DNA from: Octopus vulgaris
Lineage: Eukaryota
Direction of reading: 5' to 3'
Length of the DNA: 64,000 nt
Assembly: GCA_951406725.2 (NCBI GenBank)
Contig: OX597814.1
Coordinates: forward strand, 132,494,001-132,558,000
Shown here one piece after another: positions 1,946-43,200 of the stretch. Under the pieces are notes generated by a model, which ran no database searches, had not been told where the DNA came from, and saw nothing but the letters and a program-made list of their open reading frames with translations. Positions within the stretch are counted from its first letter, which is position 1. Each line of letters opens with the position of its first letter. Made by a program: the position numbers and the translations under genes.

Positions 1946-1960
1946 ATGAATTCCACCAAA
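1946..1960 (+). CDS. IL17: IL-17-like copy 1, coding exon 1 (MNSTK)
   Basis: ATG AAT TCC ACC AAA followed by the consensus donor GTAAGT at 1961. Phase 0 matches the acceptor cacgcag|GTT at 3307/3308. Conserved in all five copies. Confidence 0.85.
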
Positions 1961-2544
1961 GTAAGTAGACGAACCTTGTTAATATCAACTGTAATATTTA
2001 TATGTTCAGTCTTATGTCTATGCTTACTCTTCTATCATTCATAGGAATGAGTGAATCATATTGCTTATGTTCTTTACGCAGATTGGTACTATACATATGA
2101 TACGTATTTCTATGGCTGTGGTATATTGATCTAATTCTGTGCTTTCATATATATATATATATATATATATATACATATTCAATATATATATATATTTATA
2201 AATGGCACCGTTTTTTTCATAACTCTTTTAAACAAATTTAATTCTTTAATCTCACTTCTAATTTAACTAAAATTGCAGTTGGGTGTCCGAGAGCACATAT
2301 TTGGCAGGTGTTAAAGGAGAATTTGTGCAAAATATTTAAAGAACCTTAAAACAGAAGGATATGAAGCACATAAACTCTGTATTCATTCCCTCTCTTTTTA
2401 ATTATTTATTGGTTAAAGTAAATAACACCTTTGATCTTGAATGTCCAAGGTATTCTTCCAAGAAGATTCCTCATCTAAGTATCAAATCCGGCCAGTACAT
2501 AGAAGAATCCGATCTCCAGGCCATCGACAGTTTAATAGATGAAG

Positions 2545-2685
2545 GTAAATGCCGACACCGCTTAGCACCAGTGACAACATACCTCAATTACGCAGATTAG
2601 GGGAGTAGAGCAACGCGAAATAAAATGCTTTGGTTAAGAACACAAAACACAGCCCGGCACGAAATTCGATGCTCTAACCACTGAC
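2545..2685 (-). mobile_element. Decayed tRNA-derived SINE in the IL17 intron (antisense to the gene)
   Basis: Reverse complement matches 15116-15270 (ctcagtggttagagca...ccgtgccgggctgtgttttgtgttcttaa). Also present at about 21495-21618 and 41845-41983. Confidence 0.6.
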
Positions 2686-3307
2686 ACATGTGCCATCAAA
2701 ATTATCTGTTAAAAAGTAGCATAAACTCCGTTCATAGAGCTTTAGAAAGGTATGCAATCATTCTTCGAAATATATTTTCATTGCAAACGATGCTTATGGA
2801 CGGATTTGAAGTCACGGATCGACTCAAAGGAAGTTAAATTACTCTCCACATTCCAATAAACATTTCCTTTTTTAGCCCTCTTATACATACATATGTACAT
2901 ATATGTATATATATATATATTATTTCTTACTTTATTTTTGTAATTTTTATTTTTGTAGCTTTTATTTTTTAACTTTTTATTTTAATTTTTATTTGAATTA
3001 TGGCTTGTACTGTACGGTCCAGAGGACCTAATTTCGACATACCTATTTTACACGTACTTAAGTGTTTTAAAAAATTCAAATATAGTTTATAGTATTAAAC
3101 GATGATAAAGTGATATAAGGGCCTAATGATTGGGTGAGTGAAAAAGTCAGTCAGTCATTCAGTCAGTAGGACAGTCAGTCAGTAAGTGAATGAGTTGGTG
3201 TGAGCGATAGACGTAGTTTATAATACTTGATTTCGTTTATTCATTTAGCTGTGTGTCATATTGAACTGTAATTACTCATTTTCACATTTACATTTTATAT
3301 CACGCAG

Positions 3308-3838
3308 GTTCTGCTCAGAGTTGTGATCTTCCTTCTCACCAACGTCGTATTCTTCATATCCTCGGCGTCAATTCCGACTCAATGTAATATACCAAATGAC
3401 TTGAATATTCGGTACGAGAAACTCTACAACGCAGCGATCGGCAATAACTTTTTTCTACCAGCTGAAATATCTCCAGCGGGAAGTGACCAACAAGCACTGA
3501 CCGTAGGGGATAAAACTTGTCCAACATCTTCCATATCTACTGATGTCATTCGCGAGCGTTCAACCTGCCCATGGTACCTGAAAATTACCCACAATTCCAC
3601 ATATTTTCCTCCATCACGCACAGAAGTTGTGTGTCGTTGTACAGACTGTCTGGACTCTGACAGTAACCATCAATGTGTGGTGCTTTATATTCCAATGACT
3701 GTCCTGAAACGTACAGCTGAATGTGTTGATGGACTATACGTTTATAAACCAAGTGTCATCGAGGTTCCTACAGCCTGTGTGTGTGCACGGAAAGTCGATG
3801 TAATATCTGGAGGAAATGACGATGAAAATGAGTCGTAA
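3308..3838 (+). CDS. IL17: IL-17-like copy 1, exon 2 (gene join 1946..1960,3308..3838; 181 aa secreted cystine-knot cytokine)
   Basis: Acceptor ttttatatcacgcag|GTT. Hydrophobic signal peptide VLLRVVIFLLTNVVFFISSA. IL-17 motifs RERSTCPWY, CRCTDC, HQC..Y.P..VLKR...C and ACVC. Ten Cys in the mature region and an NST sequon. Confidence 0.92.
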   Translation, partial: VLLRVVIFLLTNVVFFISSASIPTQCNIPNDLNIRYEKLYNAAIGNNFFLPAEISPAGSDQQALTVGDKTCPTSSISTDVIRERSTCPWYLKITHNSTYFPPSRTEVVCRCTDCLDSDSNHQCVVLYIPMTVLKRTAECVDGLYVYKPSVIEVPTACVCARKVDVISGGNDDENES

Positions 3839-3912
3839 TATCGGCCAACATCATCAAACATTTAAATGTGTGTAACACAAAAGTTTTTCATAATGTTATG
3901 GAAGTTTAAGTA

Positions 3913-3927
3913 AACTACTGTGTGGTT
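3913..3927 (+). promoter_or_regulatory. 3' UTR stem-loop with UGU triloop (Roquin/Regnase-1 CDE-like)
   Basis: AACTAC-TGT-GTGGTT (one G:U pair). The other four copies have a perfect AACCAC-TGT-GTGGTT at 12219-12233(-), 22623-22637, 32378-32392(-) and 43275-43289. Confidence 0.45.
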
Positions 3928-40200: not shown

Positions 40201-40956
40201 GCAAGTATTTATTGAACTTTTATTCCTTTGAAAATAGGCACGTACATTCTAGACGTCCCAATATAAATATATATGTATGTATGTATGTATGTAGGTATGT
40301 ATGTATGTATGTATGTATGAATGTATGTATGTATATCTGTATGTATATATATATATATATATATATATATATATATATATATATGTATGTATATTTGTAT
40401 ATACACATATATTTGTATATTTTGTATATATATATATATATATATATATATATATATATATATATATATATATATATATATATATATATATATATATATA
40501 TATATATAATATATATATATATATATATATATATATATATATATGTATATATGTATTTATATATATATGTGTATATGCGTGTCTGCATGCATATATATGT
40601 ATATATGTATCTATACAAAGAGATAGATAGATAGATAGATAGATAGATAGATAGATAGATAGATAGATAGATTGAAAGAAAGATAGATAGATAGATAGAT
40701 AGATAGATATATAGATATATAGATATATAGATATGCAACAGAAATGATAAATTATATTAAAAATAGATTCGGAAAGTTCTTAAGACAAAATTTTACTATG
40801 CCTATGTTCCTGCGTATTAAGATAAATCACAAGGAACCACACCCGCCTAACAGGTAAAAGAGGAAACAAATCTTATACCATGTCCTGGTTCCTTCAGGCG
40901 CTCTGCAATTTATAATGATCACAATATATTTCACTTAATATCTGATCTTTCACATT

Positions 40957-41071
40957 ACCGGAAGTAAATTTTTCCTTAAATTTGTTAGTTCCTCCTGTTT
41001 ATATTTATATTTTAGTCTTCATTAATCTTTGTGACATATGGTAATTCCACGGTAAAAATATTATATATAAG
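40957..41071 (+). promoter_or_regulatory. IL17 copy 5 promoter (ETS, kB-like, TATA)
   Basis: ACCGGAAGT at 40957-40965, GGTAATTCCA at 41040-41049, TATATATAAG at 41062-41071. Confidence 0.58.
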
Positions 41072-41204
41072 TAATCTCTGAGGAGATGTTATCATCACAA
41101 GCGAATATCATTTTGATAAACTCGCACGCTCAAGAATTATCTGTAAATACGTACATATATACTACGATTGTCATCCTTTCCATTCCAAGTGACCATACGT
41201 TATA

Positions 41205-41219
41205 ATGAATACCACCAAC
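41205..41219 (+). CDS. IL17: IL-17-like copy 5, coding exon 1 (MNTTN)
   Basis: ATG AAT ACC ACC AAC|GTAAGT at 41220. Confidence 0.85.
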
Positions 41220-42669
41220 GTAAGTAGACAAACCTTGTTAATATCATCTGTAATATTTATATCTTCAGTCTTATGTCTATGCTTACTCTTCTATCATTCA
41301 TAGGAATGAGTGAATCATTTTGCTTATGTACTTAACGCAGATTGGTACTATACATATGATACGTATTTCTATGGCTGTGATATATTGATCTAATTCTGGG
41401 CTTTCATATATATATATATATATATATATATATATATATATATATATATATATATGTATGTATATATATATACATATTCAATATATATATATATTTATAA
41501 ATGGCACCGTTTTTTTCATAACTCTTTTAAACAAATTTAATTCTTTAATCTCACTTCTAATTTAACTAGAATTGCAGTTGGGTGTCTGAGAGCACACAAT
41601 TGGCAGGTGTTAAAGGAGAATTTGTGCAAAAGATTTAAAGAACCTTAAAACAGAAGGATATGAAGCACATAAACTCTGTATTCATTTCCCTCTCTATTTA
41701 ATTATTTATTTGTTAAAGTAAATAACACCTTTGATCTTGAATGTCAAGGTATTCTTATAATAAGATTCCTCATCTAAGTATCAAATCCGGCCAGTACATA
41801 GAAGAATCCCATCTCCAGGCCATCGATAGTTTAATAGATGAAGGTAAATGCCGACACCGCTTAGCACCAGTGACAACATACCTTAATTACAGAGCTTAGG
41901 GGAGTAGAGCAACGTGAAATAAAATGCTTTGGTTAAGAACACAAAACACAGCCCGGCACGGAATTCGATGCTCTAACCACTGACACATGTGCCATCAAAA
42001 TTATCTGTTAGAAAGTGGCATAAACTCTGTTCATAGAGCTTTTGAATGCTATGCAATCATTCTTCGAATTATATTTTCATAGCAAACGATGCTTATGGAC
42101 GGAGTTGAAGTCGGGATCGACTCAAAGAAAGTTACAATACACTCCACATTCCAATAAACATTTCCTTTTTTAGCCCTCTTATACATACATATGTACATAT
42201 ATGTATATATATATATATATATATATATATATATATATATATATATATATATATATATATATATATATATATATATATTATTTCTTACTTTATTTTTGTA
42301 ATTTTAATTTTTGTAGCTTTTACTTTTTAACTTTTTATTTGAATTTTTATCTGAATTATGGCTTGTACTGTACGGTCCAGAGGACCTAATTTAAACATAC
42401 CTATTTTACACGTACTTAAGTGTTTTAAAAAATTCAAATATAGTTTATAGTATTAAACGATGATAAAGTGATATAAGGGCCTAATGATTGGGTGAGTGAA
42501 AAAGTCAGTCAGTCATTCATTCAGTCAGTAGGACAGTCAGTCAGTAAGTGAGTGACTTGGTGTGAGCGATAGATGTAGTATATAATACTTGATTTCGTTT
42601 ATTCATTTAGCTGTGTGTTACATTGAACTGTAATTACTCATTTTCACATATACATTTTATATCACGCAG

Positions 42670-43200
42670 ATTCTGCTCAGAGTTGTGATCTTCCTCCTCA
42701 CCAACGTCGTATTGTTCATATCCTCGGCGTCAATTCCGACTCAATGTAATATACCAAACGACTTGAAAGTTCAGTACGAAAAACTCTACAACGCAGCGAT
42801 CGGCAATAACTTTTTCCTACCAGCTGAAATATCTCCAGCTGGAAGTGACCAACAAGCATTATTCGTAGGGGATAAAACTTGCCCAACATCTTCCGTATCT
42901 ACTGATATCATACGCGAGCGTTCAACCTGCCCATGGTACCTGAAAATTACCCACAATTCCACATATTTTCCTCCATCACGCACAGAAGTCGTGTGTCGCT
43001 GTACAGACTGTCTGGACTCTGACAGTAACCATCAATGTGTGATGGTGTATACTCCAATGACTGTACTGAAACGTACAGCTGAATGTGTTGATGGACTGTA
43101 CGTTTATAAACCAAGTGTCATCGAGGTTCCTACAGCCTGTGTGTGTGCACGGAAAGTCGATGTAATATCTGGAGGAAATGACGATGAATATGAGTCGTAA
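42670..43200 (+). CDS. IL17: IL-17-like copy 5, exon 2 (gene join 41205..41219,42670..43200; 181 aa)
   Basis: Acceptor atcacgcag|ATT. Reads ILLRVVIFLLTNVVLFISSAS; intact IL-17 domain. Confidence 0.92.
   Translation: MLLRVVIFLLTNVVLFISSASIPTQCNIPNDLKVQYEKLYNAAIGNNFFLPAEISPAGSDQQALFVGDKTCPTSSVSTDIIRERSTCPWYLKITHNSTYFPPSRTEVVCRCTDCLDSDSNHQCVMVYTPMTVLKRTAECVDGLYVYKPSVIEVPTACVCARKVDVISGGNDDEYES

What the first reader, a model, noticed from the sequence alone, without database searches (positions are those of the whole stretch)
1946..43200. Five intact IL-17-like genes in an alternating (+,-,+,-,+) array built from an inverted pair that was tandemly amplified
Seen: five near-identical 180-181 aa IL-17-like genes, all with open frames, canonical splice sites and invariant cysteines. 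Each ~19-20 kb unit holds a convergent pair, and neighbouring units put promoters head-to-head about 5 kb apart. Every transposon around them is decayed, yet no IL17 copy is. Known: IL-17-like genes are expanded and clustered in octopus and other molluscs. Inference: an older inverted duplication made the pair, recent unequal crossing-over amplified it, and dosage or purifying selection keeps the copies intact.
Basis: partly seen in the sequence, partly recalled or inferred. Interest (0 to 1): 0.75.

Follow-up and report, generated by a model that had tools for sequence, protein, structure and literature searches.

The report
Octopus IL-17 back-to-back gene array
An octopus chromosome carries 22 near-identical genes for the immune signal IL-17, arranged as eleven back-to-back pairs whose coding parts are patchworks of one another, likely an array that raises the dose of one inducible cytokine and is kept intact by selection; it is a larger and apparently undescribed form of the known octopus IL-17 cluster.

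Summary
Confirmed and extended. The five genes are intact two-exon IL-17 genes (180-181 aa, Pfam IL17, ten cysteines, GT-AG introns) in the stated +,-,+,-,+ order. They are the right end of a ~240-kb array of 11 head-to-head pairs (22 genes) that stops at a 100-N gap. Units differ by 2.4-9.9%, in an older (five units) and a younger (six units) layer, so they are not tandemly assembled alleles. Purifying selection is clear (omega 0.31; 2dlnL 80 against omega 1). 'No copy decays' holds only inside the window: 2 of 22 are broken. New: exon 2 is mosaic (71 of 9,240 triplets significant, 15 of 22 genes; 0 in 5 null simulations), with tracts shared between opposite-strand copies, best read as gene conversion. 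Spliced transcripts exist. The genome holds about 60 open IL-17 exons, against 31-36 genes reported for O. bimaculoides, in two clusters 117 Mb apart; the DNA after the gap duplicates 44 kb flanking the second cluster. IL-17 tandem expansion in octopus is known; this architecture was not found in ten literature searches.

The parts
1946..3838 (+). IL-17 gene Ap497: coding exon 1 1946-1960, exon 2 3308-3838, 181 aa; + member of unit 9 (its - partner lies left of the window)
12308..15722 (-). IL-17 gene Am506: coding exon 1 15722-15708, exon 2 12835-12308, 180 aa
20903..22548 (+). IL-17 gene Ap516: coding exon 1 20903-20917, exon 2 22021-22548, 180 aa; mosaic, about 21860-22260 resembles older minus-strand copies
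   Evidence: (p 5e-9); exact 174-nt match in an RNA-type run
32467..35929 (-). IL-17 gene Am526: coding exon 1 35929-35915, exon 2 32994-32467, 180 aa; no synonymous and 2 non-synonymous differences from Am506
41205..43200 (+). IL-17 gene Ap536: coding exon 1 41205-41219, exon 2 42670-43200, 181 aa; tract about 42700-43050 shared with minus-strand copy Am421
   Evidence: (p 4e-7)
1696..1812 (+). Conserved proximal promoter block of Ap497: CCGGAAGT (1696), GGTAATTCC (1781), TATATAAG (1805); the labels ETS-like, kappaB-like and TATA are recalled, not tested
   Evidence: GGTAATTCC in 22 of 22 promoters, TATATAAG in 21 of 22, CCGGAAGT in 14 of 22; a strict kappaB consensus matched 0 of 22
15723..20902 (.). 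Head-to-head spacer of unit 10 (ATG to ATG 5,181 nt); about 490 nt upstream of each ATG is the inverted duplicate
16208..17689 (+). 5'-truncated LINE fragment (end of RT, zf-RVT) in the spacer, co-amplified with the six young units
35930..41204 (.). Head-to-head spacer of unit 11 (5,276 nt), with the LINE fragment at 36419-37900
5909..24621 (.). Repeat unit 10 as delimited here (Am506 + Ap516), 18.7 kb
24622..45270 (.). Repeat unit 11 as delimited here (Am526 + Ap536), 20.6 kb; unit-type sequence continues to 48092
48094..48193 (.). 100-N scaffold gap at which the array is cut off
48194..64000 (+). Start of a ~44-kb segment (G000:C1:132,542,194-132,586,077) that is a collinear same-strand copy, 3.8% substitutions, of the flank left of the second IL-17 cluster (C1:14,699,110-14,739,794)

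Best explanation
This is the right end of an array of 22 IL-17 cytokine genes in eleven head-to-head pairs, under purifying selection, with mosaic coding exons that were likely made by short gene-conversion tracts between copies of either orientation. Steps: (1, inferred) one gene of a same-strand IL-17 run was duplicated in inverted orientation, giving a divergent pair; (2, structure shown, mechanism inferred) the ~19-31-kb pair was amplified in tandem by unequal crossing-over in at least two bursts, the younger one marked by a LINE fragment in the spacer; (3, mosaic pattern shown, mechanism inferred) conversion moves 100-400-nt tracts among copies, including opposite-strand ones, where a crossover would instead invert DNA; (4, shown) selection removes stops and most amino-acid changes, while 2 of 22 copies have died; (5, inferred from the family, untested) the near-identical secreted proteins are co-induced from conserved promoters and serve mainly to raise the dose of one inflammatory ligand acting on few SEFIR receptors.
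For: Array map: 11 minus and 11 plus exon-2 copies strictly alternating, C1:132.298-132.537 Mb. The nearest outgroups (Am274 and five genes of the second cluster) lie in same-strand runs. Unit divergence: young units 2.4-5.6%, old 4.0-9.7%, old versus young 8.5-9.9%; LINE fragment in the spacers of units 6-11. Omega 0.306 over 21 open exons; lnL -2119.4 versus -2159.3 at omega 1. About 11 stops expected under neutrality, 0 seen (rough estimate). Mosaicism: PHI-like test p 0.001; triplet test 71 of 9,240 significant, 15 of 22 genes, 0 in each of 5 recombination-free simulations; for 5 genes the best donor is opposite-strand, 4 of these tracts overlap exon 2; identical-run test 5 of 231 pairs, 4 cross-orientation; fixed:shared sites between young + and - copies 6:7 in exon 2 versus 79:25 in flanks, Fisher p 0.04. 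O. sinensis records match single copies at 2-6 residues, including the mosaic Am486 (P0046, 3 differences). Contigs of run X14 join exon 1 to exon 2 for two array-type 5' ends. Three SEFIR matches in the genome, a lower bound.
Against: Synonymous sites of exon 2 are not clearly homogenised between orientations (third-position distance 0.12 versus 0.11-0.18 in flanks), so conversion is patchy, not concerted. The apparent excess of dS over flank divergence among + copies mostly vanished at fourfold sites (3 of 30 comparisons p<0.05 uncorrected). Several significant tracts lie in the 3' flank or between same-strand copies, where unequal crossover explains them equally well. The triplet test cannot always say which copy is the recipient. 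No raw reads were available, only contigs, so copy number, strand, level and induction of expression are untested; the runs are RNA by the tool's guess. A strict kappaB consensus was not found.
Confidence: 0.75

Rival explanations
1. Same array, but the mosaic exons are artefacts of consensus calling or short-read polishing across near-identical paralogs.
For: Tracts concentrate in the most conserved part, where reads mis-map; the array ends at a gap; no listed DNA contig spans a tract boundary.
Against: The Am486 mosaic is present in an O. sinensis record (P0046, 3 differences, next copy 8). An RNA-type contig of another study matches Ap516 exactly over 174 nt, where the next full-length copy has 3 mismatches. 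Frames are intact apart from one 35-nt deletion.
Confidence: 0.08
2. The array is under diversifying selection: conversion shuffles variants to give ligands, or heterodimers, with different receptor affinities or resistance to pathogen antagonists.
For: Copies differ at up to 11% of residues and the differences are recombined in patches; single copies persist in O. sinensis.
Against: The ratio of non-synonymous to synonymous variants is 0.21-0.31 in all four protein regions, with no hot region; 2 identical proteins among the young copies; only 3 SEFIR matches.
Confidence: 0.12
3. Part of the array is false duplication: two haplotypes assembled in tandem.
For: Gap at the array end; Ap476 and Ap536 encode identical proteins; Am506 and Am526 have no synonymous difference.
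Against: No two of 11 units are closer than 2.4% (55 pairs), against 1.22% heterozygosity reported for an O. vulgaris genome (PMC10700109). A diploid could at most halve the count. O. sinensis has separate records for seven of these lineages.
Confidence: 0.05

Closest known systems
IL-17 expansion of Octopus bimaculoides (31 genes, Albertin et al. 2015, as cited in PMC8353272; 36 sequences in PMC8353272)
   Same: Same family and chromosome-scale tandem clustering; orthologous subfamilies.
   Different: About 60 open exon-2 frames here; one subfamily is an alternating array of 22. O. bimaculoides has its own 6-7 relatives at 12-23 residues from any copy here and outside the array clade (weak support). 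Orthologs of both clusters share one run of O. bimaculoides accession numbers, while here they lie 117 Mb apart.
Sea urchin SpIL17-1 subfamily (PMC5457136)
   Same: Two-exon genes with a tiny first coding exon; 11 genes 87-99.8% identical, 8 in a 60-kb tandem cluster; multiple copies transcribed and rapidly induced by bacteria (passages).
   Different: Independent expansion; no alternating inverted pairs or conversion in the passages seen; induction is shown there and untested here.
Drosophila Hsp70 and Amylase palindromic pairs (review PMC3924832)
   Same: Inverted paralog pairs exchanging coding sequence by ectopic conversion while flanks diverge (passages).
   Different: There the palindrome is thought to limit copy-number change and paralogs are homogenised within species. 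Here the whole pair was amplified eleven-fold and copies stay closer to their O. sinensis counterparts than to neighbours.

Membership tests
IL-17 cytokines | IL17 domain (PF06083) above the curated cut-off | tested here: met
   5 of 5 window genes, 48.8-51.6 bits against cut-off 24
IL-17 cytokines | Conserved knot cysteines (6-8 in invertebrate domains) and CPW motif (PMC8353272) | tested here: met
   10 Cys in each window protein, 8 from residue 91-92 on; CPW in 20 of 21 open array copies, CPR in Ap406
IL-17 cytokines | IL-17-type cystine-knot fold | tested here: met
   AlphaFold2 model pLDDT 68.5, pTM 0.55; every Foldseek row shown is IL-17A, IL-17F or IL-25, probability 1.0, TM 0.37-0.42 by query. 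Moderate model quality.
IL-17 cytokines | N-terminal signal peptide | tested here: inconclusive
   Strongest hydrophobic 11-mer starts at residue 10-11 in 5 of 5; no signal-peptide predictor was available
IL-17 cytokines | Acts as homo- or heterodimer | not tested
   No complex prediction was run
IL-17 cytokines | Signals through SEFIR-domain receptors | not testable with these tools
   3 SEFIR matches exist in the genome; binding untested
Palindromic pair under concerted evolution (Hsp70/Amy type) | Inverted, tightly linked paralogs | tested here: met
Palindromic pair under concerted evolution (Hsp70/Amy type) | Sequence exchange between inverted copies, focused on coding DNA | tested here: met
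   enrichment in exon over flank is modest (Fisher p 0.04)
Palindromic pair under concerted evolution (Hsp70/Amy type) | Paralogs within a species closer than orthologs between species | tested here: not met
   O. sinensis records differ from their best copy here at 2-6 residues; most paralog pairs differ more. Birth-and-death with patchy conversion fits better.
Palindromic pair under concerted evolution (Hsp70/Amy type) | Silent polymorphisms shared between paralogs in populations | not testable with these tools
   Only collapsed contigs of other individuals were available

The most novel reading that the evidence does not exclude
The alternating array is a heritable shuffling device for a cytokine: conversion between inverted copies recombines variant blocks of IL-17 into new ligands and heterodimers that selection maintains, and the youngest burst coincided with a rearrangement that split one ~65-gene IL-17 cluster into two, duplicating 44 kb at the break (both at about 3.5-3.8% divergence).
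Probability: 0.15. Interest if true: 0.7.

Novelty: new variant of a known kind. Interest (0 to 1): 0.42.

Why it matters
It roughly doubles the IL-17 count reported for an octopus and shows that one subfamily supplies a third of it. It gives a clean natural case in which crossover (same-strand units) and conversion (opposite-strand copies) can be told apart in one immune gene array. It warns that short-read expression and qPCR of octopus IL-17 pool about 20 genes. The 44-kb duplicate at the gap marks either a real split of the ancestral cluster or an assembly problem worth fixing. It does not reveal a new gene family or a new molecular mechanism.

Tried and rejected
(1) 'Exon 2 is three times more diverged than its flanks among + copies' (NG86 dS 0.12-0.13 versus flank 0.04-0.05): largely rejected; at fourfold sites only 3 of 30 pair comparisons exceeded the unit background at p<0.05 uncorrected. 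NG86 dN/dS (0.22-0.26) is therefore too low; the codon-model 0.31 is used. (2) Full concerted evolution: rejected. (3) Copy number from DNA contigs of four other runs: depths are far higher over exon 2 than over flanks, but no single-copy control was laid and the tool warns that such depths are no copy number; not used. No RNA holder was on record. (4) The spliced joint in run X18 carries letters of a second-cluster gene, not an array gene; only X14 supports array-type splicing. (5) Strict kappaB and AP-1 motifs: 0 and 3 of 22 promoters. (6) The automatic intact flag (56 of 67) was corrected by reading the table: five flagged rows have open frames of 167-181 aa and one unflagged row is frameshifted, giving 60 of 67; three further Pfam hits were not fetched; exon 1 was not checked for most genes outside the array. 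(7) The protein tree is the quick IQ-TREE search; the careful search did not finish. (8) Am355 was left out of codon analyses; Am298 exon 2 was kept. (9) The 2015 octopus genome paper is not held; its gene count is taken from PMC8353272, and its supplements, which may show gene orientations, were not seen. (10) No complex prediction was run. (11) Earlier scan notes: nothing on this locus or sequence; two notes on an unrelated helical-cytokine array.
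Full report
Observation. A self-comparison shows same-strand blocks about 19-20 kb apart at about 93% identity and inverted blocks of 2.5 kb and 0.7 kb at 82-87%. Five two-exon genes lie at 1946-3838 (+), 15722-12308 (-), 20903-22548 (+), 35929-32467 (-) and 41205-43200 (+). All have a 15-nt first coding exon, a GTAAGT donor, a CAG acceptor, 180-181 codons and 10 cysteines. All five hit Pfam IL17. The best database relatives are named IL-17-like proteins of Octopus sinensis (94%) and O. 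bimaculoides (84%), and the annotated 180-181-aa records agree with the gene model. A model of the mature protein (pLDDT 68.5) retrieves only IL-17 structures among the rows shown.

The real extent. The window is G000:C1:132,494,001-132,558,000. A genome search gave 70 matches. In the fetched DNA the five genes are the right end of a strictly alternating run of 11 minus and 11 plus copies from 132.298 to 132.537 Mb. The run starts with a minus gene and ends with a plus gene, so the head-to-head pair is the natural unit; the period is 18.7-31.0 kb. Unit-type sequence runs up to a 100-N gap at window 48094-48193, so more units may be missing. Of 67 IL-17 loci examined, 49 lie at 131.71-132.54 Mb, 17 at 14.75-15.02 Mb and 1 on C27; 60 of 67 have an open exon 2 of at least 160 codons by my reading. 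PMC8353272 (passages) gives 31 genes (citing the 2015 genome paper) and 36 sequences for O. bimaculoides.

History. The closest outgroups, Am274 and five genes of the second cluster, sit in same-strand runs, so the inverted pair is derived (inference). Non-coding distance between young + and - copies is 11-18%. Units 6-11 differ by 2.4-5.6%, units 1-5 by 4.0-9.7%, and the two groups by 8.5-9.9%. A 5'-truncated LINE fragment sits in the head-to-head spacer of units 6-11, whole or in part. O. sinensis records match single copies at 2-6 residues, whereas O. bimaculoides relatives are 12-23 residues away and fall outside the array clade in a quick tree with weak support. With the dates quoted in PMC10700109 (passages: 34 and 2.5 million years), much of the amplification falls between these splits (inference). 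Alleles in tandem are unlikely: no two units are closer than 2.4% (55 pairs), against 1.22% heterozygosity given in that paper for O. vulgaris.

Selection. A codon model on 21 open exons gives omega 0.306; fixing omega at 1 costs 39.9 log units. A rough neutral expectation is about 11 stops and 23 frameshifts; 0 and 1 are seen in exon 2. Constraint is even along the protein (0.21-0.31). Two of 22 copies are dead: Am355 has a 35-nt deletion, and Am298 has lost exon 1. The O. sinensis records nearest to them are full-length (P0048 at 2 residues from Am298; P0043 at 4 residues from the Am355 C-terminal frame, tied with Ap363). Ap406 has CPR for CPW and Am329 an extra cysteine.

Mosaic exons. Informative sites show block-wise sharing across orientation. 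Nearby sites are more compatible than permuted ones (p 0.001). A triplet test flags 71 of 9,240 triplets and 15 of 22 genes after Bonferroni correction, against 0 in each of 5 simulations without recombination. For five genes the best donor is on the opposite strand; four of these tracts overlap exon 2 (Ap516, Ap536, Am486, Am355). An identical-run test flags 5 of 231 pairs, 4 of them cross-orientation. Crossover between inverted copies would invert DNA, so conversion is the likely route (reasoning as in PMC3924832, passages). Against over-reading: third-position distance between orientations (0.12) is close to the flank distance, the exon-versus-flank contrast in fixed and shared sites is modest (p 0.04), and an apparent excess of dS among + copies did not hold at fourfold sites. 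Against an assembly chimera: the Am486 mosaic recurs in O. sinensis P0046, and a contig of run X18 equals Ap516 over 174 nt where the next full-length copy differs at 3.

Expression. Four runs that the tool guesses to be RNA were laid on Ap516. Cover concentrates on the two exons. Contigs of X14 join exon 1 to exon 2 at the predicted sites for two array-type 5' ends; the joint in X18 belongs to a second-cluster gene. Only contigs were available, so level, strand and induction are unknown. A proximal promoter block is conserved in 22 promoters (21 array genes and Am274), with GGTAATTCC in 22 and a TATA-like box in 21; the factor names are recalled. The genome gives 3 SEFIR matches, a lower bound. 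Dosage of a fast-induced ligand is the committed but untested reading; it leans on the sea urchin SpIL17-1 case (PMC5457136, passages) and on mussel gill induction (PMC8353272, passages).

The gap. From the first base after the gap, about 44 kb are a collinear same-strand copy of the DNA just left of the second IL-17 cluster, with 1,101 substitutions in 29,191 aligned bases (3.8%). A 1.5-kb probe matches full length at only these two places among the 40 candidates scored. The first genes of that cluster are among the array's nearest outgroups, and O. bimaculoides orthologs of both clusters share one run of accession numbers (XP_014769320-339; indirect evidence). The simplest reading is one ancestral cluster (array, flank, second cluster) that was split, or mis-ordered in assembly. 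This could not be settled.

Literature. Ten searches found the known expansion and tandem clustering but no description of an alternating inverted array, of about 60 genes, or of conversion among invertebrate IL-17 genes. Seen: passages of PMC8353272, PMC5457136, PMC3924832, PMC6279123 (IL-17 expanded in O. minor), PMC4199593 (two IL-17 transcripts in haemocytes), PMC10700109 and PMC9795677 (no mention of interleukin in the main text). The 2015 genome paper and all supplements were not seen, and most subscription journals are outside the library.

Verdict. A real, well-supported array; a new variant of the known octopus IL-17 cluster that evolves by known mechanisms. Interest 0.42.

Noticed in passing
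window 48194-64000 and G000:C1:132,542,194-132,586,077 versus C1:14,699,110-14,739,794: A 44-kb two-copy duplication, same strand, 3.8% substitutions, starts exactly at the gap and ties the array's right end to the left flank of the second IL-17 cluster 117 Mb away: real split of one cluster or an assembly problem.
   Followed up: partly
G000:C1:14,912,000-14,962,000 (L044-L049): A second, separate alternating run of IL-17 genes (-,+,-,+,-) in the second cluster; three near-identical proteins, with 90-94% inverted matches around the exons against about 80% upstream, which hints at conversion there too.
   Followed up: partly
G000:C1:131,752,000-131,809,000 (L058-L062): A third young subfamily of five same-strand IL-17 genes.
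   Followed up: no
G000:C11:22,531,875 and 22,571,149: Two SEFIR-domain matches with identical scores on opposite strands 39 kb apart, possibly an inverted receptor pair.
   Followed up: no
G000:C27:34,687,527 and 34,692,881; C30:4,043,261; C1:193,467,535: Divergent IL-17 domain hits outside the two clusters, the C27 pair on opposite strands.
   Followed up: no
window 12835-12815, 22021-22040, 32994-32974: Two different in-frame one-codon deletions in the predicted signal peptide define sub-lineages; one of them occurs in both orientations.
   Followed up: partly
window 26968-27408 (-): Mariner transposase fragment between Ap516 and Am526, in a stretch without a counterpart in the other window units.
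   Followed up: no
window 48656-49042 (+) and about 55900-60520 (+): Pif1 helicase fragment and a broken LINE (RT, zinc knuckle) distantly related (67%) to the spacer LINE.
   Followed up: no
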